Of a DNA stretch of 54,360 bases, positions 15,051 through 30,405 are shown one piece after another. Origin of the DNA: a bacterium (GTDB lineage Bacteria; Patescibacteriota; Patescibacteriia; S139-126); contig DAOUWZ010000005.1 in assembly GCA_030666865.1 (NCBI GenBank), forward strand, positions 1 to 54,360. The letters are read 5' to 3'. The notes below the pieces were generated by a model. That model did no database searches, was not told the origin of the DNA, and worked only from the letters and a program-made list of their open reading frames with translations. Each line of letters opens with the position of its first letter. Positions within the stretch are counted from its first letter, which is position 1. The translations under genes and the position numbers were made by a program.

Positions 15051-15054
15051 ATAT

Positions 15055-15127
15055 TCGGAGATCGTCTAATGGCCCGCCCGCCATCGCAAGTATGAGCTTG
15101 CTTAGGCATTGCGGGCGGGTAGGACAC
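15055..15127 (+). pseudogene. tRNA-Gln 5' fragment, copy 1, interrupted by a 47-bp palindromic insert (15073-15119)
   Basis: TCGGAGATCGTCTAATGG[CCCGCCCGC...GCGGGCGGG]TAGGACAC. Confidence 0.85.
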
Positions 15128-15148
15128 TAAGTTAAATTTGTTTATTAT

Positions 15149-15209
15149 TCGGAGATCGTCTAATGGTAGGACACCTGGTTTTCCTGCCTGCCGGCAGGCA
15201 GGGGTCCAG
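15149..15209 (+). pseudogene. tRNA-Gln 5' half, copy 2, with a 20-bp palindrome inserted in the anticodon loop
   Basis: TCGGAGA...CCTGGTTTT[CCTGCCTGCCGGCAGGCAGG]GGTCCAG. Confidence 0.9.
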
Positions 15210-15216
15210 AAAATAT

Positions 15217-15477
15217 ATGTTATATTATGTTTATATATTAAAAAGTATTTTTAAGGAAAATTGGTCTTATGTAGGTAGCACTGATAATCTTGAGAGAAGA
15301 TTTAAAGAGCATAGTTGTGGTAAAGTAAGATCAACAAAAGGAATGAGGCCATTAAAATTAGTTTTTAGTGAGTCATTTAAAACAAGAGAATTAGTTTTAG
15401 AAAGAGAAAAATATTTAAAATCAGGAATCGGTAGAGAAGAGAAAAACAATATTATAAACCATTCGGAGATCGTCTAA
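15217..15477 (+). CDS. Small GIY-YIG nuclease family protein
   Basis: YYVYILKS...SYVGST.NL.RR..EH, REKYLKSG.GRE; last codons and stop lie inside the tRNA 5' end. Confidence 0.9.
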   Translation: MLYYVYILKSIFKENWSYVGSTDNLERRFKEHSCGKVRSTKGMRPLKLVFSESFKTRELVLEREKYLKSGIGREEKNNIINHSEIV

Positions 15478-15536
15478 TGGTAGGACACCTGGTTTTGGTC
15501 CAGGCAATCGGGGTTCGATTCCCTGTCTCCGAGCCA
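15463..15536 (+). tRNA. tRNA-Gln (anticodon TTG), CCA encoded
   Basis: Acceptor TCGGAGA/TCTCCGA, anticodon arm CCTGG-TTTTGGT-CCAGG, T-arm CGGGG-TTCGATT-CCCTG, ends GCCA. Confidence 0.97.
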
Positions 15537-15694: not shown

Positions 15695-16363
15695 ATGGAT
15701 GTTAGTACTATAATACTCTCAGTAATAAAAAAGATTTGGCCATTAATATTTTTAGTATCATTGGTTTATTTGTTTACTGAATTATACCCAGTATTACGTA
15801 CTCGTTGGAAAAGAAGTAAGAAATTCAGAGAAGGTGAGAATTGGCGTTCTGATAGGGAACTTTTGCAATGGTTAAGAAAGTTAAGACCATCTGAGTTTGA
15901 GCATTATATATCTAAGCTTTTTTCTAGTTTAGATTATATTACTGAAACAGTAGGAAAGTCTCATGACGGAGGTATAGATGTAATAGCTAAGAAAGATGGT
16001 AAAACTCATTATATTCAATGTAAGAAATTTATAACTTCTGAAGTTACTCTGGGTGATGTACGTGATTTTTATGGCGCATTAGCTGATTATTTAGCTGATG
16101 GACAAGGTTATTTTATTACTACTAATAAATTTACTCTAGAAGCTCGTAAATTTGTTGAAGATAAGCCCATTGAGCTGATTGATGGATTTGAACTAATTCG
16201 TTATATAAAAATGTCTAAAAGCGACGATATAGTCACAGAACCACCTTTGACTAAAAAAACATGCCCTCAATGTAAAGGGCAGTTAGTTGAACGTACTGGT
16301 AAGTACGGTAAGTTTATTGGTTGTGCCAATTATCCTAAGTGTAAATATACTGAAAAGTTATAA
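15695..16363 (+). CDS. Mrr-family restriction endonuclease with N-terminal TM helix and C-terminal topoisomerase C4 zinc finger
   Basis: EFE..I..LF, DGGIDV, IQCKK, VRDFYGA, IELIDG; CPQC...GKFIGCANYPKC. Confidence 0.88.
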   Translation: MDVSTIILSVIKKIWPLIFLVSLVYLFTELYPVLRTRWKRSKKFREGENWRSDRELLQWLRKLRPSEFEHYISKLFSSLDYITETVGKSHDGGIDVIAKKDGKTHYIQCKKFITSEVTLGDVRDFYGALADYLADGQGYFITTNKFTLEARKFVEDKPIELIDGFELIRYIKMSKSDDIVTEPPLTKKTCPQCKGQLVERTGKYGKFIGCANYPKCKYTEKL

Positions 16364-16366
16364 AGA

Positions 16367-17668
16367 TTAGATTAACTTAAGTTTCCTATCAGCTAGTGTT
16401 AATTTACTTCTTAGGCAAGATAGTAGCTCTCGTTTCTCTATGATATTCCCATCAGTCAATATATATTTTGCATACTTCTTCATATCAGTCTCTTTACTGA
16501 GTTTTAGTTTCTCTTTATTAGCTCCAAATACTGTTTGCCTAAATTTATAATATTTTTCAACTTCATTTTCCAGTTTTTGTCTAATACCTAGCTTGTCCAA
16601 ATTGATAGTATCTATAATATTTAGTATTTGTTTGATAAGTTCTTCTTCTCGTATATATTTACCAGAGCATTTTTTATCTCTTGATCTAGTACAGCCATAA
16701 TATATATATTTTTTCTTTGTACCATCTTTTCTGTATTTATATTTTTCTTGTGCGGTTATACCTGATCCACATTTTCTACATTGTATTAGTTTTGTGAAGG
16801 CGAATTCTTTACTACCATAGTTATATTCTCTTTGAATGGTTATTTTTTTCTGTACTTTATCAAATAATTCTTTGGAAACTAGGGGAGTATGCTGAGCAGT
16901 ATACCAATTCCCACTACCATGAGGATATTCAAACACACCATAATAGAAAGTATTCTTTAATATAATATAGATATTACTTAAAGATAAATGCTTTCCATTT
17001 TTTGTTTTAAAATTTATATCATTTTTAAGCCAGAAAAATATTTGTCTACCACTTAAGCCTTCATTGGCTACTTTTTCGTATATTTGTTTTATTACATGTC
17101 CGCGTTCTGGATCTACTATGACATGACATTTTCTATCACTTCGTTTTTCATTTAAATAACCAGTTGGTGCTACTGATGGTCTTAAGCCCATTTCTACTTT
17201 TGCTCTTAAACCACGCTTTACATTGATACCTCGATTATCATTTTCCAGTTTTGCTTGAGATCCTAGGATCATCAGTAAGAATTTTTCATTAGGGGAATTA
17301 GTAAACGTTTGTCCATGCGTTCGTATTTCAAAAAGTAATTTACTATCCATTAGATCTACTACTGCTCCAAGATCGCCAGCATTTCTTGCTAGTCGATCAG
17401 GTGCCCAAGTTAAAATACCATTAAACATTCCTTTACTTATATCTACTAGTAGTTGATTATATACTGGTCTTTGCCCTGACTCTTTGGCTGAATGTGATTC
17501 TTTGCGTATTTCTACTATATTTAGTTTTTCTTTCTCTGCTAGCTCTAACATTTCCTTAATCTGTGAATCAATAGACATTGCTTGTTTTTCATCGCTCTCG
17601 CTCGATTTGCGGGCATATAGGCAGTACTTAATAGTTGGGTAATTATCTTGTGATTGTGTTTGATCCAT
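16367..17668 (-). CDS. Large serine recombinase (resolvase + recombinase + zinc ribbon)
   Basis: YARKSS catalytic Ser, ESHSAK, DRLARN, CRKCG...YYGC...C. Confidence 0.93.
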   Translation of the reverse strand: MDQTQSQDNYPTIKYCLYARKSSESDEKQAMSIDSQIKEMLELAEKEKLNIVEIRKESHSAKESGQRPVYNQLLVDISKGMFNGILTWAPDRLARNAGDLGAVVDLMDSKLLFEIRTHGQTFTNSPNEKFLLMILGSQAKLENDNRGINVKRGLRAKVEMGLRPSVAPTGYLNEKRSDRKCHVIVDPERGHVIKQIYEKVANEGLSGRQIFFWLKNDINFKTKNGKHLSLSNIYIILKNTFYYGVFEYPHGSGNWYTAQHTPLVSKELFDKVQKKITIQREYNYGSKEFAFTKLIQCRKCGSGITAQEKYKYRKDGTKKKYIYYGCTRSRDKKCSGKYIREEELIKQILNIIDTINLDKLGIRQKLENEVEKYYKFRQTVFGANKEKLKLSKETDMKKYAKYILTDGNIIEKRELLSCLRSKLTLADRKLKLI

Positions 17669-17760
17669 AGTTTTGGATTAATAATTATATCTCCTTAAAC
17701 TAATGGATGACGCAATCCCTTTAGTGAGTCCAGGACACCTAGTAGACAAATTGTTGGTAA

Positions 17761-18300
17761 CTAATTCTTTTCATCCTCATCATATTTAGCCATTTTTTCT
17801 TCAATTTCATCTTCTTTTTCATATCTTTTATCTCTTTGCATTATAATATCAATATTATTCATTCCTTCTTTTTTGCCTTGTAACAATTCGACATAATCTT
17901 TGCTATTTGCAATTATTTCTTCAATACTTTCATCTTGTGATTCTACCTCATAAGGTCTTGCCCGTTTTTTGGAATAAGTGTGACTATTGTATTTTAGCCA
18001 AAAAATTATTGCTGTTAGATTGTCGGCTTGAATAGATTTAATTAGTTTTGATTCTGCTAAATCATTTATTAATGATTTTCCAGCTCTCAGTGCTCTATCA
18101 GCCGCTTTAGCAAAAATGTGATCATTTTTACGCCACCTATAATATGTGGCTCTAGATACACCAGCTCTTTCACAAGCTAATTGTACAATCGGCGTTTTTT
18201 TCAGTTGACTGATCAATGCTTTTTTCATTTCTTCTGTTCTATTAGCTACTGTTTCAGAAGATTTTTTATCTTTTTTGGTAGTAATAGATTTCTTATTCAT
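17761..18300 (-). CDS. Helix-turn-helix protein (phage terminase-small-subunit-like / phBC6A51-type)
   Basis: ACERAGVSRATYYRW...DLAESKL...AIIFWLK. Confidence 0.75.
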   Translation of the reverse strand: MNKKSITTKKDKKSSETVANRTEEMKKALISQLKKTPIVQLACERAGVSRATYYRWRKNDHIFAKAADRALRAGKSLINDLAESKLIKSIQADNLTAIIFWLKYNSHTYSKKRARPYEVESQDESIEEIIANSKDYVELLQGKKEGMNNIDIIMQRDKRYEKEDEIEEKMAKYDEDEKN

Positions 18301-18321
18301 AATATTTACATAGCTATTATA

Positions 18322-19653
18322 TTAATTAACTTTTTTAGCGGTTTTGCCTGTGTATTTTTCCCAGCGTTTTAGTATCACCTCAGTATAAATAGGGGACTTT
18401 TCCATTAAGAAACATCTTCTGCCTAGTTTAAGTGAAGCTATAAGCGTACTCCCCGAACCTCCAAATGGCTCTAGAACAATATCCCCTCGCTTGGTTAGAA
18501 CTTTTATGTAAGGAATAAGAAGCTCTAATGGCTTAGTGCCAAAGATAATGCCTTGACCAGAACTTTTTTTATCAGCGGCAATGTGTTCAATAAAATCAGT
18601 TGGACATATTGCTTTATTCTTTTTATAACCTTCCCAATGTGGGGAGCCAGAAGTGGCAAACAGAGCATTTTCATATTCATTTTGAAATAGCTCATCAGAT
18701 TCAGTTTCAAGATTTAATTCAACATTACCTTTAGTACCTACAATAGCAATGTCAGATTTGTTAAAGAACTTATATTTAGCTGCAAATCCTTGTACTCGGT
18801 TCGGGATATGCCAAATAATTGTATTCCTATAGCGCCAATGTTTTTCCAGCTCTTGCCAAAGGGCCTTTAAATTTTTTGGATTTTCATATATAATAATAGA
18901 GAAGTCGGGTTTTTGCACTTTAGCAACACTGTTCATCCATAATTCTGTAAAGTTATCAGGTAAAATATCTGTTTCTAAATATCTACGATTTTTCTTTACA
19001 CCAAATCCTTCAGTGACTCCGTCTTTATTTCTGGTTTTACCCTTTAAATAATCGAGTAAATATGGAGGATCAGTCAGGCACAGATCTGCCTTATGGTTTT
19101 CCATAAGCGATAACATATCAGCTTCTATGGTAGAGTCCCCGCATTTAACAAATGATCCATCAATTTCATAAATATTTCCTTTTTTGACTTTTATCTCAGT
19201 AATGTTTAGCTTTTCTAATTCCTTTTTTAAATCAAATTGTTCTGGTGTTGTATCTATTTCAAATATTTCATCCATTTCTTCATTAGAAAATCCAACATCA
19301 GTCAAAAGCACTTCATTAAAATCTTGTAAAAGAGATAAATCAAATTCTCCTAAATTCTTATTTAGCCTTAAGTTAAGTTCTTTTTCTCTTTCAATCTCAG
19401 GGATATTTACATAGACAACATCAACTTCTTTAAATCCCATTTCCTTCATCATCTCTAAACGGAAGTGTCCTCCAATCAAAAAATTCATTCTATCAGGATG
19501 ATTGTTACAGATGAGGGGGTCGACTTGTCCAAACCGTTCAAGACTCTGTTTTAAGTCTTCTGCTTGTTGTTTGTCCCACTTACGCGGATTATATTTACTT
19601 TTTTTGATTGCTGTAATGGCAATTTTTTTAATTTGTAAGTTGTTTTCTAACAT
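18322..19653 (-). CDS. ParB/Srx N-terminal domain fused to an N6/N4 DNA methyltransferase
   Basis: YNPRK, GGHFR (ParB-like); DPPY then EPFGGSGST (beta-class MTase order). Confidence 0.88.
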   Translation of the reverse strand: MLENNLQIKKIAITAIKKSKYNPRKWDKQQAEDLKQSLERFGQVDPLICNNHPDRMNFLIGGHFRLEMMKEMGFKEVDVVYVNIPEIEREKELNLRLNKNLGEFDLSLLQDFNEVLLTDVGFSNEEMDEIFEIDTTPEQFDLKKELEKLNITEIKVKKGNIYEIDGSFVKCGDSTIEADMLSLMENHKADLCLTDPPYLLDYLKGKTRNKDGVTEGFGVKKNRRYLETDILPDNFTELWMNSVAKVQKPDFSIIIYENPKNLKALWQELEKHWRYRNTIIWHIPNRVQGFAAKYKFFNKSDIAIVGTKGNVELNLETESDELFQNEYENALFATSGSPHWEGYKKNKAICPTDFIEHIAADKKSSGQGIIFGTKPLELLIPYIKVLTKRGDIVLEPFGGSGSTLIASLKLGRRCFLMEKSPIYTEVILKRWEKYTGKTAKKVN

Positions 19654-19681
19654 ATAGTTGTTAAGTTAATTTTTAAGTAAT

Positions 19682-19751
19682 AAAAAAATCTTAAGTTGTA
19701 GGCATACTAAACCCAGGTATCATTGGTTTTGGTATTTTTACAATTTAAGAT
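19682..19751 (-). terminator. Attenuator-like hairpin in the leader of the ParB-MTase operon
   Basis: Stem 19688-19700/19739-19751 with an inner stem, followed by a U-tract on the minus strand, ~28 nt before the ATG. Confidence 0.5.
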
Positions 19752-19904
19752 CTCTTTGGGACTTATTTCCCTAAAAGCAGGGAACTAAGGTTTGGTTAAA
19801 AAAAAGAGGTGTAATGAAGGGGTTAATAATTAAATCACTCTTTATGTGTCTCTATGTATCATTGTTTGATGGTTGTTTTTAATTGTTAAGGAACTAATGA
19901 ATTA

Positions 19905-19932
19905 ATTATAGATGGACTGAAAAATAAGTCAA
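19905..19932 (-). promoter_or_regulatory. Sigma70 promoter for the ParB-MTase/HTH/recombinase operon
   Basis: Minus strand TTGACT-16 bp-TATAAT. Confidence 0.55.
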
Positions 19933-20144
19933 TATTATGCCACATAATATAAATAGTGTCAATACTGTAAATAAGTCATTATACTTTTTGGCTAAGATTA
20001 GCTTAAAAATAATAATGAATTTTTAAAACCTTTTAAATATTGGTTATTTTGACCTGTTGATAACTCTACTTCGCAAGGTCTGTGGTTAAGCTAGAATGGA
20101 CTAAAGGTCGAAATAAGGGTAAAATTACCTTACAAATTGAATAT

Positions 20145-20336
20145 TCTGGTATAACCAGAGTGCCTAAACCTTATTTATAAGGCATGGCGCTGAAATCCAA
20201 CCATGGTAGAGAACTCCTCGTTCAAGTCTTCCATGGTTGGTCGTATTCCGAAAGGAATATGGGTGTCGCAAGATGCCAGACTTGGCGGGGAGCTTTGTGT
20301 ATTCAAAGTCAACCTGTTACCAAGGTTGGTTTTTTG
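20145..20336 (+). ncRNA. Candidate multi-stem structured RNA with GNRA tetraloops, pseudoknot and terminal terminator
   Basis: Stems CCAACCATGG/CCATGGTTGG, CGTATTCC-GAAA-GGAATATG, GGTGTC-GCAA-GATGCC; CAAGTCT(20223)/AGACTTG(20278) complementarity; AACCT...AGGTT plus T-tract. Confidence 0.65.
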
Positions 20337-20360
20337 TTTATAATTTATTTTAAAAATAAT

Positions 20361-20747
20361 ATGGAAAATAAAAAAGAAAATATTAGCAAGAAAAATATTA
20401 TTACTTTATTAGTCGTTATCATTATTATCTTGATAAGTGGATTCTTTGTATATCCAGAATATTCAAGATATAGATTTCAAAAAGAAATAGAGCATCAACA
20501 AGCAAGACAGGAGGCTTCAGAAAAGAGCATGCTTATAACAGAAATAGATTTATTGCAGATGGATCTCGGTGAGTTTGAATATACATCTGAAAGACAAAAA
20601 CAAATGAGTTTAGAAGAATTGAGAAATGCTAAACAAGAACTTGAATGGAAAATGGAATTTAATACTCTCAAAAGAAAATGTGGTGATGATTGTCCTGAGA
20701 ACTTAACCTGGGGTAATTTTCTTTTAAGTAAGGTACTTGCAGATTAA
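20361..20747 (+). CDS. Hypothetical single-TM coiled-coil protein
   Basis: AT-rich-preceded ATG at 20361 (the upstream ORF extension overlaps the structured RNA); TM IITLLVVIIIILISGFFV. Confidence 0.65.
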   Translation: MENKKENISKKNIITLLVVIIIILISGFFVYPEYSRYRFQKEIEHQQARQEASEKSMLITEIDLLQMDLGEFEYTSERQKQMSLEELRNAKQELEWKMEFNTLKRKCGDDCPENLTWGNFLLSKVLAD

Positions 20748-20756
20748 TTTTAAGAT

Positions 20757-21350
20757 ATGTATAAAAGAATTCCTGATAAAAAACTTATTGGAGAAGAGTT
20801 TTTTAAAAATACTAAAGATAAACATTTTTCAATATTAGAATTTTGGCAGTATGGTTTTTCCAATCTAAATTCAAATGTACTCAGAGGTGCATTGGCTGAA
20901 TTTCTAGTTGAAAATGCTTTAAAAGATAAAAATGATATTTTCGTTCGCAATCCTTGGGGTGATTATGATGTTGAAACAAAAGATAATAAAAAAATTGAAG
21001 TGAAATGTAGTTCTTATATTCAAGATTGGGATCAAAATAAATTAAGCACAATACTTTTTTCAGGACTCAAAGCAAAAGAAATTTATTGGTCAGAAGCTGT
21101 GAAAAAGAAAAGTGATTTAAAAAAGAAAGATTATAAAGCAGATATTTATATTTTAGCCTTATTGGATCATCAAGAATCCGAAACCCTTGATATATTGGAT
21201 ATTGACCAATGGAGTTTTTATGTTTTAACAAAAGATAGAATAAAAGAAATAACCAAAGATGGTAAGTCTATATCATTATCTAAACTTAACAAAAACAATA
21301 TTAAGCCTTATCATTTTAATCAATTGGCTAGTATAGTAACTAATATTTGA
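20757..21350 (+). CDS. PD-(D/E)XK restriction-endonuclease-like protein
   Basis: RGALAEFLV...YDV...IEVK. Confidence 0.7.
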   Translation: MYKRIPDKKLIGEEFFKNTKDKHFSILEFWQYGFSNLNSNVLRGALAEFLVENALKDKNDIFVRNPWGDYDVETKDNKKIEVKCSSYIQDWDQNKLSTILFSGLKAKEIYWSEAVKKKSDLKKKDYKADIYILALLDHQESETLDILDIDQWSFYVLTKDRIKEITKDGKSISLSKLNKNNIKPYHFNQLASIVTNI

Positions 21351-21468: not shown

Positions 21469-23994
21469 ATGGTAAATTTCAAAGAAGCACAAGCACGAAT
21501 AAAGATAGACGAATTACTCAAACAAGCTGGTTGGAGATTTTTTGATAATGAGAATGATTCAGCGAATATTCAACTTGAGCCTGGGGTTAAACTTACAAAA
21601 ATAGTACTAGATGCTCTTGGAAACGATTTTGAAAAAGAAGTAAAAGGTTATGTTGATTATTCACTACTCGATGATGACGGAGATCCTATTATTGTGATTG
21701 AAGCCAAAAAAGAGTCAATTCATCCACTGGAAGCTAAAGAGCAAGCACGAAAATACGCAAATGTACAAAGATGTCGTTTTGTAATTCTAACAAATGGTAA
21801 TACTCATTATTTTTGGGATATAGAACATGGTAATCCTCAAATTATAACGGACTTTCCCACGCTCGAATCTTTATATCACCGTAAAAAGTTCAAGCCAGAT
21901 ATGAATGCTCTTGCAGACGAATATGTGGATGATGGTTATATTGCACGAATCAAAGATGAAAATTATTTTGATGATCCAAGATATCAAGATGAAAACACAC
22001 GAACAACATACCTAAAAGATAAAGGTCTTATAATTTTGCGACCGTTTCAGCTTGATGCTATCCATAAACTACAAAGTGCCGCTAAAAATGGACAAGAAAG
22101 ATATTTGTTCGAGATGGCAACAGGGACAGGAAAAACATTAACAACTGCCGCAGTTGCACGCCTATTTTTACGCACAGGAAATGCACGAAGGATTCTCTTT
22201 TTAGTAGATAGAATCGAACTTGAAAATCAAGCAGAGAAAGCACTAAAAAAAGTACTTGGTGACGACTATATAATTAAAACCTTCAAACAAAATAGAGACA
22301 GCTGGAAAAGTGCTCAAATAGTAGTTAGTACAGTACAATCATTGCTTGCTGGTGATAAATATCGTAAAGAATTTTCACCAACAGACTTTGAGTTGGTTAT
22401 TTCTGATGAAGCTCATCGTTCGCTTGGGGGTAACTCGCGCTCTGTATTTGAGTATTTCAACGGTTATAAATTAGGACTTACGGCAACGCCTAAAGATTAT
22501 TTAAAGAATGTTGAGGATAAAGACGATCCGCGCACATCTGAACGTCGTGAGTTGTTAGATACATACAGAACTTTTGGATGTGAATCAGGAGTGCCGACAT
22601 TTCGTTACAATCTATCACAAGGAGCAAAAGACGGTTATCTCGTTCAGCCAAAAGTTTTTGATGCACGTACACAAATTACAACACAATTGTTATCTGATGA
22701 GGGCTATGCAGTACTTGCGGCAAATGAAGATGGTGATGAAGTTGAAGAAACATTTACACATCGAGATTATGAGAGAAAATTTTATAATACAGAAACAAAT
22801 ATTGCATTTTGCAAGACACTTATAGATCATTGTGTAACAGATCCGATTACACAAGAAATCGGCAAAACTTTAGTATTTTGTGTTAGCCAAAAACATGCAC
22901 GTAAAATTACAGAAATTCTTAATTTGATGGCTGATAAAAAATACCCTGGCAAATACAATTCTGATTTTGCTGTGCAAGTCACATCAACCATCAAAGATGC
23001 TCAAGATAAAACAGTAAGATTTGCAAATGATAATCTCAGTGGTAACTCTAAATTTAAAGAGGGCTACAAAACTAGCAAGACGAGAGTTTGTGTAACTGTT
23101 GGCATGATGACAACAGGATATGATGCTCCCAATATCTTAAACTTAGCACTAATGCGTCCAATTTTTTCTCCATCAGATTTTGTGCAGATGAAAGGTCGAG
23201 GGACGCGCAGACATACATTTTCATATGGTGATGATAAATATGAAAAAGAGAATTTCTACCTTTTTGATTTCTTTGGCAACTACGAATATTTTGAAGAGAA
23301 GTTTGACTATGACGAGGTGCTTAAATTGCCAGCATTGCAACATACTGAAACAAATACAGATGATCAAGAAATTAAGAAGAAAATTGAATCTCTAGATTTG
23401 GATCAATTAGATGCGATAAAGCAAATAGATAAAACTGAAGTCGGAGAGGAAGGAATGGTTATAGACAGAGAGCTATATCATGAGACTTTTGAGAAAATCA
23501 TAAAAGAAGATGGTGAGCTTCAAGATATTTATACTCAAAATGGTATAGATGGAGTTAAAGAATATGTAATGTCAGAAATCCTCAATAAACCAAAAGAGTA
23601 CTTTACACCAGAAAAGCTTCGCGAGTCTATAACATCAGATAGATGGATAAGTTTTAAGGAAATCTTACAAAAAGCATTTGGAGAAATTGATACATTTAAA
23701 AACTTAGATGAAAAAACAGAAGAAGAATTTAAGAAGTTCCAAGATATTGAGGAGTTGGATGCAAATGTTGTCCCAGAGGCGCGATGGTTCTTCTCTGCGT
23801 ATTTGCAAGATAAAGATTTGCGCGGAGTTATAGAAAGTGAGCAGTTTGGCAGATTACCAGCAATGGCAGGAGTAGATTTTGACGCTTTCAAAAAATTAGC
23901 AGAAACAAAACGCAATGGTGGTTCGTATGCACAATACATACCAATATACATACATGATTATGTAGACAATCTAAAAACTTTTGAACAAGTATAA
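21469..23994 (+). CDS. hsdR: Type I restriction enzyme R subunit (EcoEI/EcoAI-like DEAH helicase-nuclease)
   Basis: VDY..IEAKK, MATGTGKT, DEAH, TAT, QMKGRGTRR. Confidence 0.9.
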   Translation: MVNFKEAQARIKIDELLKQAGWRFFDNENDSANIQLEPGVKLTKIVLDALGNDFEKEVKGYVDYSLLDDDGDPIIVIEAKKESIHPLEAKEQARKYANVQRCRFVILTNGNTHYFWDIEHGNPQIITDFPTLESLYHRKKFKPDMNALADEYVDDGYIARIKDENYFDDPRYQDENTRTTYLKDKGLIILRPFQLDAIHKLQSAAKNGQERYLFEMATGTGKTLTTAAVARLFLRTGNARRILFLVDRIELENQAEKALKKVLGDDYIIKTFKQNRDSWKSAQIVVSTVQSLLAGDKYRKEFSPTDFELVISDEAHRSLGGNSRSVFEYFNGYKLGLTATPKDYLKNVEDKDDPRTSERRELLDTYRTFGCESGVPTFRYNLSQGAKDGYLVQPKVFDARTQITTQLLSDEGYAVLAANEDGDEVEETFTHRDYERKFYNTETNIAFCKTLIDHCVTDPITQEIGKTLVFCVSQKHARKITEILNLMADKKYPGKYNSDFAVQVTSTIKDAQDKTVRFANDNLSGNSKFKEGYKTSKTRVCVTVGMMTTGYDAPNILNLALMRPIFSPSDFVQMKGRGTRRHTFSYGDDKYEKENFYLFDFFGNYEYFEEKFDYDEVLKLPALQHTETNTDDQEIKKKIESLDLDQLDAIKQIDKTEVGEEGMVIDRELYHETFEKIIKEDGELQDIYTQNGIDGVKEYVMSEILNKPKEYFTPEKLRESITSDRWISFKEILQKAFGEIDTFKNLDEKTEEEFKKFQDIEELDANVVPEARWFFSAYLQDKDLRGVIESEQFGRLPAMAGVDFDAFKKLAETKRNGGSYAQYIPIYIHDYVDNLKTFEQV

Positions 23995-24005: not shown

Positions 24006-26723
24006 ATGCTTACATCAGAAACAAAACAAAGAATCAGCTCCCTGCGACAAATTCTTGTCGGCAAAGTACCTAATCCAACAGAACAAGTGGATCAAATCAC
24101 CAATGCGCTGATTTATAAATACATGGACGACATGGACCAGCAGGCAATCTCACTTGGCGGTAAGGCTGGTTTTTTTGTTGGTAAATATGAGAAATATGCA
24201 TGGAAAAACTTAATGGACACCAAAATTGGTGCGCAAGATAGAATGAATGTGTACACAGAAGCGCTTGAAAGTATGGGAACAAATAAAAATCTCTCTCCAG
24301 TGTTTCGTGATATCTTAAAAGGTGCTTTTCTGCCATATCGTTCACCAGAAACTTTAAATTTATTTTTACATGAGATAGATAGTTTTTCATACAGTCATAG
24401 CGAGGAATTAGGTAATGCATTTGAATACTTGCTTTCAATTATGGGATCACAAGGTGATGCTGGTATGTTCCGTACACCGCGCCACATTATTAATTTTATT
24501 GTAAAAGTTGTGAACCCGACAAAAGACGATACAGTGCTTGATCCAGCATGTGGTACGGCTGGTTTTCTTATATCTGCTTATAAACATATCAAAGGAGAGC
24601 ATGACGGCATAGATAACAAAACAGGTAAAAAGACAGATAAAGAAAAAACACTCACACCAGCACAAGTTAAAAAGATTCATAAAAACTTTTCTGGTTACGA
24701 TATCTCGCCAAGTATGACGAAGTTATCCCGTGCAAATATGTTTTTACACCAATTCCCAGATCCTCAAATTTACGAATACGATACATTAAGTTCAGAAGAA
24801 AGATGGAACGATAACTTTGATGTTATCCTTGCGAATCCTCCATTTATGAGTCCAAAAGGCGGAATTGTGCCGCACAGCAGATTTAGTATAAAAGCCAATC
24901 GCTCTGAGGTGCTTTTTGTGGACTATATTCTTGAGCACCTTAAACCAAAAGGGCGTGCTGGAATTATTGTACCCGAGGGGGTTGTTTTCCAATCTGGTAA
25001 TGCATATAAACAACTCCGCAAGGCACTCGTTGAGGATGGGCTTTGGGCCGTTGTGAGTTTGCCACAGGGCGTCTTCAATCCATATGCTGGGGTAAAAACC
25101 TCTATTTTACTTTTTGATAATAATGTCACCAAACAATCAGACGAAGTTTTGTTTGTGAAAATTGAGAATGACGGTTTTGACTTGGGTGCGCAACGCAGAT
25201 CGATTGAACAAAATGATTTGCCAAAAGCATTAGAGTTAATGAATAAATATAAAGAAAGTCTAAATAATAAGGATGTTTATTTGACTAGGCGAGATGTTAC
25301 GGAAAATGGCATTTTAATAGTTTCCAAAAAAGAGATTTTTGAAAACGATGACTACAATCTGAGTATTGATAGATATAAAAAAGATCCATTAGAGTATCTG
25401 AAAAATATTGTAAATATAAAAGAAAAAGAAATTCAGAAAAGTTTACAACCAGTTTTGGATTCAGTAAGTAGCTTTGTAAAATCTTCTGCTTTTTTACAAA
25501 TCCAAGATAATTTCAAAAAGATGGTTGAACAATATCAGAAAATATTAGAAGACGGTAAAATCAAAAAGATTATGGAAATACAAAAGAAGATCATCAAAGA
25601 AATAAAAGAACGCCAAAAATGGCCGATGGTGGAGTTGGGAGATGTTGCAACATTAATGACTGGAGGGACGCCAAAATCAACAAAAGAAGAGTATTATGGT
25701 GGTGATGTTAAATGGTTGGTGTCGGGCGATATTCATAAAGGGGAGGTTTTTGACTGTGATGGTCGTATAACAAACTTGGCGTTGCGTGAATCAAATACGA
25801 AGTTATTGCCAATTAACTCCGTACTAATTGCACTCAATGGGCAAGGCAAAACACGTGGAAGTGTTGCAATTTTGCGAGTGAAAGCAGCGTGTAATCAATC
25901 CCTTGTTTCAATAGAACCACAAAAAGAAAAATTGTTGCCAGAATTTCTTTTGTACGCACTAAGAAATATGTACCAAGAAATAAGGGGTATGACAGGTGAT
26001 AATCAGCGTAGTGGGCTAAACATGCCAATAATTCGCTCAATCAAGATTCCACTCCCCCCACTTGAAATCCAAAAACAAATCGTTGCAGAAATTGATGGGT
26101 ATCAAAAAGTTATTGATGGAGCAAAGCAGGTAGTAGAAAATTGGAAGCCAAATATAAAAAATGATCCAGATTGGAAAGTAGTTAAGCTAGAAAAAGTTTG
26201 TAAGTACGCAGGAGGGACACAGCCGCCAAAATCAACGTTCATTTATGAGTCGAAGGATGATTATATTCGTCTTCTTCAAATAAGAGACTATAAAAATGAC
26301 AATAATATTGTATATATACCTAAAAAAGAGAGGCATAAAATGTGTACCGAACAAGACATAATGATTGGAAGATACGGTCCACCAGTATTTCAAATACTAA
26401 AAGGAAAAGCCGGGGCGTACAATGTGGCTCTTATGAAGTGTTTACCAGATGAGTCTAAAATTACTAATGATTGGCTTTACTATTTCCTTTTATCTGAACG
26501 TGTACAGACAAAAATTATTGCCTTGTCTGAAAGAGTTAGGCAAGCTGGTGTCAGACCCGCTGATTTAGATAATTTAGATGTTGCTTTACCAACACTAGAT
26601 GTTCAAGTTCAAGTCGTAGATAAAATTAAAGAAGAGCAGAAAATGGTTGACCAGAACAAAAAATTGATTGGAATATTTGAGCAGAAAATCAAACAAAAAA
26701 TTAGCGAAGTTTGGGGGAAATAA
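24006..26723 (+). CDS. Type I R-M fused methyltransferase-specificity protein (HsdM-HsdS)
   Basis: FRTPRH, DPACGTAGFL, NPPF; then two TRDs (GGTPKS...PLPPLEIQKQIV; LPTLDVQ..VV). Confidence 0.9.
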   Translation: MLTSETKQRISSLRQILVGKVPNPTEQVDQITNALIYKYMDDMDQQAISLGGKAGFFVGKYEKYAWKNLMDTKIGAQDRMNVYTEALESMGTNKNLSPVFRDILKGAFLPYRSPETLNLFLHEIDSFSYSHSEELGNAFEYLLSIMGSQGDAGMFRTPRHIINFIVKVVNPTKDDTVLDPACGTAGFLISAYKHIKGEHDGIDNKTGKKTDKEKTLTPAQVKKIHKNFSGYDISPSMTKLSRANMFLHQFPDPQIYEYDTLSSEERWNDNFDVILANPPFMSPKGGIVPHSRFSIKANRSEVLFVDYILEHLKPKGRAGIIVPEGVVFQSGNAYKQLRKALVEDGLWAVVSLPQGVFNPYAGVKTSILLFDNNVTKQSDEVLFVKIENDGFDLGAQRRSIEQNDLPKALELMNKYKESLNNKDVYLTRRDVTENGILIVSKKEIFENDDYNLSIDRYKKDPLEYLKNIVNIKEKEIQKSLQPVLDSVSSFVKSSAFLQIQDNFKKMVEQYQKILEDGKIKKIMEIQKKIIKEIKERQKWPMVELGDVATLMTGGTPKSTKEEYYGGDVKWLVSGDIHKGEVFDCDGRITNLALRESNTKLLPINSVLIALNGQGKTRGSVAILRVKAACNQSLVSIEPQKEKLLPEFLLYALRNMYQEIRGMTGDNQRSGLNMPIIRSIKIPLPPLEIQKQIVAEIDGYQKVIDGAKQVVENWKPNIKNDPDWKVVKLEKVCKYAGGTQPPKSTFIYESKDDYIRLLQIRDYKNDNNIVYIPKKERHKMCTEQDIMIGRYGPPVFQILKGKAGAYNVALMKCLPDESKITNDWLYYFLLSERVQTKIIALSERVRQAGVRPADLDNLDVALPTLDVQVQVVDKIKEEQKMVDQNKKLIGIFEQKIKQKISEVWGK

Positions 26724-30033: not shown

Positions 30034-30405
30034 ATGGTTAAAAAACAAAATGAACTTAAAAGTAAATTTACTAAATTGATCAAAAGTAATAATTTTAGTT
30101 TCGACGATTTATCACAAATATCGACAGAACAAGGAGTGTATATTATTTATAGTAATAGGAATAAAGTTTTACATGTAGGTAGAACTGTTAGAGCAAGAAA
30201 TGGATTAAAGCAGAGATTGACAGATCATAAACGAGGGCAATCTAGTTTTGTTAAAAAAGGGTTGAAAGGTGATAGAGATAGATTAAGAAATTGTCATTTT
30301 AAATATATAGTAGAAGATAATAATAGAATTAGAGCATTATTAGAATGCTATACAATTGGAGGGTTATACCCTGAACATATTGGCTTAGGAAAAAGAAAAA
30401 AATAG
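30034..30405 (+). CDS. GIY-YIG-like nuclease
   Basis: GVYIIY...VLHVGRT...LKQRLTDH...LLE. Confidence 0.7.
   Translation: MVKKQNELKSKFTKLIKSNNFSFDDLSQISTEQGVYIIYSNRNKVLHVGRTVRARNGLKQRLTDHKRGQSSFVKKGLKGDRDRLRNCHFKYIVEDNNRIRALLECYTIGGLYPEHIGLGKRKK

What the first reader, a model, noticed from the sequence alone, without database searches (positions are those of the whole stretch)
20095..20336. Pseudoknotted, GNRA-rich structured RNA at the centre of the island
Seen: behind a TAGAAT -10-like box lies a GC-rich ~200-nt stretch of back-to-back helices: TCTGGT/ACCAGA; AGTGCC..GGCGCT with an internal CCTAAA/CATGG loop resembling the 11-nt GAAA-tetraloop receptor; a 10-bp CCAACCATGG/CCATGGTTGG stem; an 8-bp stem capped by GAAA; a 6-bp stem capped by GCAA. 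CAAGTCT (20223-20229), inside the 10-bp stem's loop, is exactly complementary to AGACTTG (20278-20284), giving a pseudoknot. A terminator ends ~25 nt before the first cargo gene. Known: tetraloop/receptor plus pseudoknot are hallmarks of ribozymes and riboswitches. It is not colinear with the c-di-GMP-I riboswitch or a group I core as I recall them. Inference: an undescribed ncRNA tied to this recombinase island (regulator of defence cargo, ribozyme, antitoxin or recombinase cofactor).
Basis: partly seen in the sequence, partly recalled or inferred. Interest (0 to 1): 0.78.

Follow-up and report, generated by a model that had tools for sequence, protein, structure and literature searches.

The report
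Known LOOT RNA leader with switch
The flagged structured RNA is real but is a copy of the already catalogued LOOT RNA of ultra-small (CPR) bacteria, and comparison of over a hundred copies suggests it is a gene leader that can flip between two folds rather than a free-standing small RNA.

Summary
The core (20161-20277, +) is a full-length match to Rfam RF03000, LOOT RNA (82 bits, cut-off 46.4), so it is not undescribed. This scan has also noted LOOT 33 times on other DNA.

LOOT's function is unknown. Comparison of 113 distinct copies adds four points.
It joins the whole P2 loop (20207-20229) to a conserved 3' extension (20278-20299) that the Rfam model lacks.
- That helix shares bases with the inner P2 hairpin, which is also conserved, and by my steric reasoning it cannot coexist with the closed P2 stem.
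- A same-strand ORF of at least 100 aa starts within 120 nt in 88 of 110 copies. Products are diverse and enriched for membrane or secreted proteins.
- In 24 of 113 copies the copy's own P2 5' strand recurs just before the start codon. In the window, the terminator 3' strand mimics the P2 3' strand.

Best reading: a cis-acting leader switch with an unknown trigger. It is a new member of a known family, of moderate interest.

The parts
20097..20125 (+). Promoter-like pair: -35 TGGACT (20097-20102), 17-nt spacer, -10 TAAAAT (20120-20125)
   Evidence: Listed by the consensus scan (9 of 12 matches). The same TGGACT...TAAAAT arrangement lies upstream of several other LOOT copies. A TAnnnT box ends 3-8 nt before the ACAA motif in 60 of 113 copies. 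The transcription start is inferred, not shown.
20132..20144 (+). Conserved 5' leader motif ACAAATTGAATAT (family consensus ACAAyTkAAT), probably the first transcribed bases
   Evidence: An ACAANN motif lies within 45 nt upstream in 88 of 113 copies, mostly 7-16 nt before P1.
20145..20159 (+). Optional small hairpin P0 (TCTGGT ATA ACCAGA) inserted between the leader motif and P1
   Evidence: Sequence. A hairpin of different sequence sits at the same place in L012, L043 and L044 only, so 4 of 113 copies have it. It lies outside the Rfam model.
20161..20277 (+). LOOT RNA core (Rfam RF03000). P1 is 20161-20164/20186-20189 plus 20169-20173/20178-20182, with a receptor-like internal loop. P2 outer is 20197-20206/20231-20240. 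P2 inner is 20211-20214/20220-20223. P3 is 20242-20249/20254-20261 (GAAA loop). P4 is 20262-20267/20272-20277 (GCAA loop)
   Evidence: cmscan gives 82 bits against a gathering score of 46.4, E 6e-16, model positions 1-121 of 121. The helices covary on 77 further copies: 96.6% of cells paired against 62.4% shuffled, on an alignment fitted to these helices.
20278..20300 (+). Conserved 3' extension (family consensus GCUGGCG-N-GGGGCUUUGUGU) that pairs with the whole P2 loop 20207-20229 to form the long-range helix S2.
   Evidence: Present in all 77 matches found with a pattern that did not include it. Covariation is shown. Own-versus-other duplex energies are -26.2 against -15.8 kcal/mol, with the own pairing better in 74 of 74 copies.
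20305..20335 (+). Intrinsic-terminator-like hairpin (core CAACCT 20310-20315 / AGGTTG 20323-20328) plus a T-run. Its 3' strand CCAAGGTTGG (20320-20329) is a 9-of-10 copy of the P2 3' strand
   Evidence: Terminator scan. Direct repeat 20231-20241 / 20320-20330 at 91% identity. In the full-length MFE the P2 5' strand pairs with this strand in place of the terminator.
20361..20747 (+). First downstream gene: a 128-aa protein with an N-terminal hydrophobic anchor and no significant family match
   Evidence: ORF list. Pfam gives only a sub-threshold hit, and PADLOC and PHROGs give none. The hydrophobic N-terminus was found.

Best explanation
The element is a copy of LOOT RNA. I read it as the 5' leader of the island's rightward cargo transcript, acting in cis as a conformational switch.

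Transcription probably starts about 30 nt before P1, from a conserved promoter. The RNA first folds into the catalogued LOOT shape: P1 with a GAAA-receptor-like loop, a long P2 hairpin, P3 capped by GAAA and P4 capped by GNRA.

The 3' extension is transcribed next and is complementary to the entire P2 loop. Forming that long helix (S2) requires the inner P2 hairpin to melt. By my steric reasoning the closed outer P2 stem cannot hold a fully paired 24-nt loop, so S2 should also free the P2 strands.

The freed strands then have partners downstream. In the window, the terminator's 3' strand is a near copy of the P2 3' strand. P2 closed therefore lets the terminator form (gene off). P2 open lets the P2 5' strand pair with that terminator strand (read-through).

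In about a fifth of other copies, an exact copy of the P2 5' strand sits directly before the start codon. There the same flip would cover or uncover the translation start.

Shown here: family membership, the covarying S2 helix, its base-sharing with inner P2, the leader position, and the downstream strand copies. Inferred: the transcription start, the steric exclusion, the direction of the switch, and that anything (ligand, protein, temperature or folding kinetics) sets it.
For: Family and structure:
- Family membership rests.
- S2 on 40 copies: 13 pairs are 88.7% paired against 73.0% shuffled, with 0 of 500 shuffles as high. There are 76 compensatory cells against 23, and slid partners pair at 37-55%.
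- The extension of S2 into the U-rich tail is 83.4% paired against 68.3%.
- On an independent 77-copy set, aligned by a model that does not contain S2, pairing is 77.0% against 65.5% and compensatory cells are 193 against 69.
- Alignment-free test: own loop against own tail gives -26.2 kcal/mol, against -15.8 with other copies' tails. The own pairing is better in 74 of 74 copies.
- The competing inner P2 hairpin is also copy-specific, with the own pairing better in 70 of 74.
- In the window, folds with P2 forced and with S2 are iso-energetic at -70.1 and -70.3 kcal/mol. The S2 fold pairs the P2 5' strand with the terminator's 3' strand.

Leader position:
- A same-strand ORF of at least 100 aa starts within 120 nt of the model end in 88 of 110 copies. 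The figure is 27% at random positions and 28 of 112 in the mirror orientation.

Variable output modules behind a conserved core:
- An exact copy of at least 8 nt of the copy's own P2 5' strand lies downstream in 24 of 109 tested copies. With other copies' strands it is 5 of 2180.
- That copy ends 0-7 nt before the called start codon in 20 of 24 cases.
- The extension has a downstream complement at z < -2 in 38 of 113 copies.
- A separate canonical terminator, as in the window, occurs in about 7 of 106 copies.
Against: - No expression data exist. No RNA run holding this DNA was listed, so the 5' and 3' ends are inferred.
- Downstream genes are very diverse. That is unlike classical metabolite riboswitches and gives no clue to a ligand.
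- About half the copies show none of the three output modules that I scored.
- In the window, the pairing of the extension with downstream sequence is weak (z = -1.56).
- The polarity I infer for the window (P2 open gives read-through) is opposite to the polarity expected where P2 opening would cover a start codon.
- The steric argument is reasoning, not a model.
- The column-based test of the inner P2 hairpin on alignment A1 showed no covariation (66.3% against 65.4%, with 171 of 500 shuffles as high). Only the alignment-free test supports that hairpin.
- Rfam types LOOT as a gene/sRNA.
- Related copies are not independent, so the p-values overstate the support.
Confidence: 0.55

Rival explanations
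1. A free-standing small RNA, as Rfam types it. It would be made from its own promoter and ended by the S2 helix plus the U-rich tract (and in the window by the hairpin terminator). It would act in trans or as a protein-binding or scaffold RNA, with downstream genes expressed only by leak-through.
For: Rfam type 'Gene; sRNA'. The RNA has its own conserved promoter-like module. The GC-rich S2 core is followed by CUUUGUGU or CCUUUUUUG in all aligned copies. The window has a strong terminator before the ORF. Some genomes carry up to 4 copies.
Against: An ORF follows on the same strand within 120 nt in 88 of 110 copies. Copy-specific duplicates of P2 strands lie at the start codon or terminator, which has no purpose for a trans-acting RNA. 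The U-rich tract itself covaries as a paired strand. A separate canonical terminator occurs in only about 7 of 106 copies.
Confidence: 0.17
2. A constitutive structured 5' cap for mRNAs of accessory genes. It would act as a stabiliser, a processing site (for example RNase III cutting in the long helix) or a processive antitermination element like phage HK022 put RNA. It would have no sensing function.
For: It sits at the very 5' end of transcripts of unrelated cargo genes. It travels with its promoter as one module. A duplex of about 20 bp is a plausible RNase III substrate (my own knowledge, not tested). The window has a terminator directly downstream that an antiterminating polymerase would ignore.
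Against: Two mutually exclusive pairings are both conserved, and strand copies are placed at start codons. These features point to switching, not to a static cap. No resemblance to put or EAR was found by Rfam at E <= 1 in 19900-20500.
Confidence: 0.13
3. A self-cleaving ribozyme or a self-assembling RNA. In the second case the loop-to-tail complementarity would be used between molecules, together with tetraloop-receptor contacts.
For: It has a pseudoknot plus a multi-helix junction, an invariant GAAA loop and receptor-like loop, a scattered multi-copy distribution in mobile DNA, and a loop-to-tail pairing that is awkward to form within one molecule (inference).
Against: There is no match to any ribozyme family. 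The most conserved bases are explained by the tetraloop-receptor pair. The leader position and the start-codon strand copies are not explained. Nothing here tests cleavage or assembly.
Confidence: 0.06
4. One reading: an RNA antitoxin for the downstream protein, or a cofactor of the serine recombinase.
For: The order promoter, structured RNA, terminator, protein gene resembles type III toxin-antitoxin loci (recalled). A serine recombinase lies within 4 kb in 7 of 17 loci examined.
Against: Downstream proteins are unrelated across copies. There are no tandem repeats. Most LOOT copies are not next to the ParB-methylase/recombinase cassette, since only 8 of the 55 listed matches lie within 5 kb of one. 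The RNA is oriented away from the recombinase operon.
Confidence: 0.03

Closest known systems
LOOT RNA motif, Rfam RF03000 (from the Weinberg et al. 2017 survey, PMC5737381; shown as a 'metagenomic-based RNA' in the Rfam 14 paper, PMC7779021)
   Same: Full-length match over the cut-off, with P1 and its internal loop, P2, P3-GAAA and P4-GNRA all present. It is found in many Patescibacteria (CPR) lineages.
   Different: The Rfam model stops at P4 (121 positions). It lacks the 5' leader motif, the optional P0 hairpin and the conserved 3' extension that pairs with the P2 loop. Rfam types the family as an sRNA, whereas its position says leader. I could not see the survey's supplement or the Rfam seed, so I cannot say whether the authors noted the extension. 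The passages I read do not mention it.
Riboswitches and attenuators with pseudoknot-based switching (for example the preQ1, SAM-II and fluoride classes; recalled)
   Same: A conserved folded domain is followed by variable output modules (terminator, start-site masking). The alternative pairings share one strand.
   Different: There is no ligand, no coherent regulon and no Rfam match to any riboswitch. Lysine scores 16.5 bits against a cut-off of 30. The competing helix is about 20 bp, far longer than usual.
11-nt GAAA tetraloop receptor (CCUAAG / UAUGG; motif recalled from memory)
   Same: The P1 internal loop reads CCUAAA(C) / (G)CAUGG and is nearly invariant. P3 always ends in GAAA.
   Different: The closing G-U of the classical motif is replaced by an A/C juxtaposition. 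Docking was not modelled or tested.
Phage-satellite-like islands with orphan terminase genes (PICI-like; lead from earlier scan note e1-887371)
   Same: The window's neighbours are a ParB-methylase, a terminase-small-subunit-like HTH protein and a large serine recombinase. Sister loci L024 and L027 add a terminase large subunit.
   Different: The window has no large-subunit gene. LOOT also occurs far from such cassettes. No packaging role for the RNA is indicated.

Membership tests
LOOT RNA (Rfam RF03000) | Covariance-model score at or above the gathering score over the full model | tested here: met
   82 bits against 46.4, model positions 1-121 of 121, E 6e-16.
LOOT RNA (Rfam RF03000) | P1 with the conserved CCUAAA / CAUGG internal loop, P2 hairpin, P3 capped by GAAA, P4 capped by GNRA | tested here: met
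   The alignment to the consensus shows all of them. Only the inner part of P2 is short (4 bp) and poorly matched.
Riboswitch (generic) | Conserved domain in a 5' UTR with alternative pairings linked to a terminator or start site | tested here: met
   The output modules were detected in only about half of the copies.
Riboswitch (generic) | Specific ligand binding that changes the fold | not testable with these tools
   Needs in-line probing, ITC or similar.
Riboswitch (generic) | Downstream genes form a coherent pathway or function | tested here: not met
   The 106 first ORFs include nucleases, DNA methylases, proteases, OB-fold proteins and many unknowns. The only shared trend is an N-terminal hydrophobic segment, in 63 of 101 against 324 of 1028 control ORFs.
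c-di-GMP-I riboswitch / group I intron / other Rfam families | Any covariance-model match | tested here: not met
   At E <= 1 only LOOT and a sub-threshold Lysine hit (16.5 bits against 30) were found in 19900-20500.
Type III toxin-antitoxin RNA antitoxin | Tandem direct repeats upstream of a conserved endoribonuclease toxin | tested here: not met
   There are no tandem repeats in 19500-20420, and the downstream proteins are unrelated.
Intrinsic terminator (20305-20335) | GC-containing hairpin followed directly by a T-run | tested here: met
   1 site found against 0.3 expected in shuffles. Its function was not tested.

The most novel reading that the evidence does not exclude
LOOT may be an orphan riboswitch-like class confined to Patescibacteria. 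It would travel as a portable promoter-plus-leader module that puts surface, secreted-nuclease and restriction or defence cargo genes of mobile islands under one common, still unknown signal. It would work through an unusually long loop-to-tail helix that pries open P2. If so, the Rfam model is truncated and mistyped.
Probability: 0.25. Interest if true: 0.7.

Novelty: new member of a known kind. Interest (0 to 1): 0.33.

Why it matters
The copy itself is ordinary, being one of three LOOT copies in this 1.09-Mb genome. LOOT was found in about a quarter of the genomes sampled from its class.

What could matter is the family. LOOT is a widespread, elaborately folded RNA of bacteria that are hard to culture, and no function has been assigned to it. 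The evidence here points to a cis-acting switch rather than an sRNA. The pieces of evidence are:
- a conserved extension missing from the catalogued model;
- two exclusive conserved pairings;
- a leader position in front of genes;
- copy-specific strand duplicates at start codons and at the window's terminator.

This gives concrete constructs to test (20132-20345). It also suggests how accessory genes on CPR mobile islands are controlled.

The same conclusions were already reached several times on other genomes in this scan, so little is added beyond replication.

Tried and rejected
- **Papers.** Searches for 'LOOT motif' (0 papers), 'LOOT' with the survey title and 'LOOT RNA / RF03000' (5 papers) gave only listings. 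I read passages of PMC5737381 (its only hit is an author named Loot), PMC7779021 (a figure legend), PMC7657543 (one sentence on cross-covariation) and PMC11701678 (a table row). None gives a function or mentions the extension.
- **Sequencing runs.** No RNA holder was listed for 19900-20800. Only DNA metagenome contigs were listed, so I laid no reads.
- **Inner P2 hairpin.** The column-based test on A1 showed no signal. I later put this down to misregistered columns, because the alignment-free test is positive.
- **P2 strands against the start region.** Duplex energy was weak overall. The 5' strand gave p = 0.89 and 0.59. The 3' strand gave p = 0.006 and 0.05, with the own pairing better in only 38 of 72. 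Only the exact-copy test is clear.
- **Antisense LOOT fragment.** Only 11-12-nt imperfect inverted repeats turned up (I21 and I23), which I treat as chance.
- **Island borders.** A search for att-like direct repeats bounding the island found none convincing.
- **Pattern hits that failed.** 9 of the 85 loci found by pattern did not match the model: L070, L073, L076, L093, L101, L113, L117, L119 and L132. I take them as chance hits.
- **Rows dropped before counts.** These were L018 (22 bits), a second weak hit in L013, and three duplicates (L085 = L010, L133 = L087, L062 = L060).

Full report
**What is there**

The region 20095-20336 lies in the 707-bp gap between two gene sets.
- On the minus strand is an operon with a ParB-N6/N4 methylase fusion (18322-19653), a terminase-small-subunit-like HTH protein (17761-18300) and a large serine recombinase (16367-17668).
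- On the plus strand is a cargo set. It starts with a 128-aa membrane-anchored protein (20361-20747), followed by a type I restriction system.

The segment 20161-20303 folds better than 199 of 200 shuffles, with z = -3.69.

**Identity**

A scan of the whole window against Rfam gives two hits: tRNA-Gln, and at 20161-20277 (+) the family RF03000, LOOT RNA. The LOOT hit scores 82 bits against a gathering score of 46.4 and covers the full model. At E <= 1 the only other match in 19900-20500 is a sub-threshold lysine-riboswitch hit. No c-di-GMP-I or group I match appears. The RNA is therefore not undescribed.

LOOT comes from the 2017 survey of 224 candidate RNAs, and Rfam types it 'Gene; sRNA'. 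I found no paper assigning it a function. My searches were made, and I read passages only.

This scan has already noted LOOT 33 times in at least 32 other genomes, with readings like mine.

**Distribution**

- The window's genome (1.09 Mb, 99.6% complete) has three copies.
- 12 of 41 relatives and 37 of 151 sampled genomes of the class have a match, with up to four copies each.
- A sequence pattern taken from P1 and P3 found 5 predicted viral contigs and at least 120 genome contigs. Most are labelled as Patescibacteria lineages. A few are labelled DPANN archaea or Gammaproteobacteria, which I cannot vouch for.
- A covariance model that I built from 40 copies matched 77 full-length copies in 76 of the 85 fetched loci. 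The other 9 loci look like chance pattern hits.
- After removing three duplicates, 113 distinct copies remained for the counts below.

**Beyond the catalogued model**

*Upstream.* Many copies share a promoter-like module. It consists of a -35 box (TGGACT in the window and several others), a -10 TAnnnT box, a gap of about 6 nt, and then ACAAyTkAAT just before P1. The ACAA motif is present in 88 of 113 copies, and a suitably placed -10 box in 60.

In the window these elements are 20097-20102, 20120-20125 and 20132-20144.

*Downstream.* Every copy carries a conserved extension, GCUGGCG-N-GGGGCUUUGUGU. It is complementary to the whole P2 loop, including the 3' strand of the inner P2 hairpin.

The pairing covaries:
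- 13 core pairs are 88.7% paired against 73.0% in shuffles, with 76 compensatory cells against 23. Slid controls pair at 37-55%.
- 8 further pairs into the U-rich tail are 83.4% paired against 68.3%.
- On the independent 77-copy set, whose alignment was not fitted to this helix, pairing is 77.0% against 65.5% and compensatory cells are 193 against 69.
- Without any alignment, a copy's loop pairs with its own tail at a median of -26.2 kcal/mol, against -15.8 with other copies' tails. The own pairing is better in 74 of 74 copies.

In the window the helix runs 20207-20229 with 20278-20299.

**Two exclusive folds**

The inner P2 hairpin of the Rfam model is also copy-specific, with the own pairing better in 70 of 74. 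A column-based test on my first alignment had shown nothing. The inner hairpin and the long helix use the same bases.

The loop has a median length of 24 nt and is almost entirely consumed by the long helix. A closed 10-bp outer P2 stem cannot span such a duplex, so I infer that full formation also opens outer P2. This is reasoning, not a model.

In the window the two alternatives are iso-energetic, at -70.1 kcal/mol with P2 forced and -70.3 for the fold with the long helix. In the second fold the P2 5' strand pairs with the 3' strand of the downstream terminator. That strand, CCAAGGTTGG at 20320-20329, is a 9-of-10 copy of the P2 3' strand.

**Leader, not coding**

- A same-strand ORF of at least 100 aa starts within 120 nt of the model end in 88 of 110 copies. 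The figure is 27% at random positions in the same loci and 28 of 112 in the mirror orientation.
- The ATG inside the conserved CAUGG opens a frame that reaches a long ORF in only 7 of 112 copies, one of which is the window.
- 71 of 113 copies have stops in all three frames.

The 187-aa ORF from 20184 is therefore an accident of this copy.

**Output modules vary**

- In 24 of 109 tested copies, an exact copy of at least 8 nt of the copy's own P2 5' strand recurs downstream. With other copies' strands this happens in 5 of 2180 comparisons.
- That copy ends 0-7 nt before the called start codon in 20 of 24 cases. In two of the remaining four cases a nearer ATG of a short ORF is visible.
- The extension has a significant downstream complement in 38 of 113 copies. 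In the window this is weak, z = -1.56.
- A separate hairpin-plus-T-run terminator, as in the window, is seen in only about 7 of 106 copies.

A conserved core with varied, copy-matched output elements is what cis-acting switches look like. Roughly half the copies, however, show none of these modules.

**Context**

First downstream genes are unrelated to each other. They include staphylococcal-type nucleases, DNA methylases, OB-fold 'tRNA_anti-like' proteins, trypsin-like proteases and zinc-ribbon membrane proteins, and more than half have no Pfam match. Of the first ORFs, 63 of 101 have an N-terminal hydrophobic segment, against 324 of 1028 crude ORFs in the window's genome.

Among 17 loci examined to +/-4 kb:
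- 7 have a large serine recombinase;
- 5 have the ParB-methylase cassette;
- 2 have tyrosine integrases;
- 4 have none of these.

In sister loci the cassette includes a terminase large subunit, so these are phage-derived or satellite-like islands.

The ParB-methylase occurs in 10 of 151 class genomes, and 9 of those carry LOOT. 8 of its 12 genes have a LOOT within 5 kb, but those are only 8 of the 55 listed LOOT matches. LOOT is enriched in such islands and is not specific to them.

**Verdict**

My best explanation (0.55) is a cis-acting leader switch whose trigger is unknown. The rivals are a free-standing sRNA (0.17), a constitutive stabilising, processing or antitermination cap (0.13), a ribozyme or self-assembling RNA (0.06), and an antitoxin or recombinase cofactor (0.03).

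No transcript data were available, so the RNA ends and the direction of switching remain inferences.

Noticed in passing
window 15147-15182 and 15461-15496 (also 15053-15088): A 36-nt stretch covering the 5' half of tRNA-Gln (15463-15536) is repeated exactly 314 nt upstream, so the two copies bracket a 104-aa GIY-YIG ORF (15163-15477). A third, 64%-identical copy lies 94 nt further up. This looks like a GIY-YIG gene inserted at a tRNA gene with target duplication.
   Followed up: partly
window 30034-30405; L021 4553-5103: A second small GIY-YIG gene lies at the far side of the cargo region. In the genome's other recombinase-linked LOOT locus (contig C39), two small GIY-YIG genes directly follow the serine recombinase. 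Serine-recombinase islands here may target or sit beside GIY-YIG genes.
   Followed up: no
window 16367-19653; L024 6512-9820; L027 11251-14468: The cassette of ParB-methylase plus terminase-small-like HTH protein is followed by a serine recombinase in the window. In two sister loci it is followed by a terminase large subunit instead (PHROG 38, E 4e-79 and 8e-73). There are no capsid genes nearby, which is satellite-like.
   Followed up: partly
window 24006-26723: A single 905-aa ORF fuses a type I methylase (HsdM) with two specificity (HsdS) domains. It lies next to an 841-aa HsdR-like helicase at 21469-23994.
   Followed up: no
G000 contigs C36:86488-86606 and C39:1823-1947: The same 1.09-Mb genome holds two further LOOT copies (94.6 and 69.3 bits). 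One lies between a KAP NTPase gene and an FtsK-gamma-domain gene. The other lies upstream of a 286-aa ORF and a serine recombinase.
   Followed up: partly
L063 2000-2151 (+) and 2649-2794 (-): Two different LOOT copies face each other about 500 nt apart on one contig. An earlier scan note describes a similar inverted pair that had been mistaken for transposon ends.
   Followed up: no
L087, L116: Full-length LOOT matches (98 and 112 bits) lie on contigs whose records are labelled Nanoarchaeia and Pacearchaeota. L087 is identical in its RNA to L133, which comes from a Uhrbacteria record. This suggests mis-binning rather than archaeal LOOT.
   Followed up: no
window 15695-16363: An Mrr-type restriction endonuclease domain fused to a topoisomerase-type C4 zinc ribbon sits between the tRNA and the recombinase. 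A Zn_ribbon_Top1 protein also lies directly upstream of LOOT in L028.
   Followed up: no
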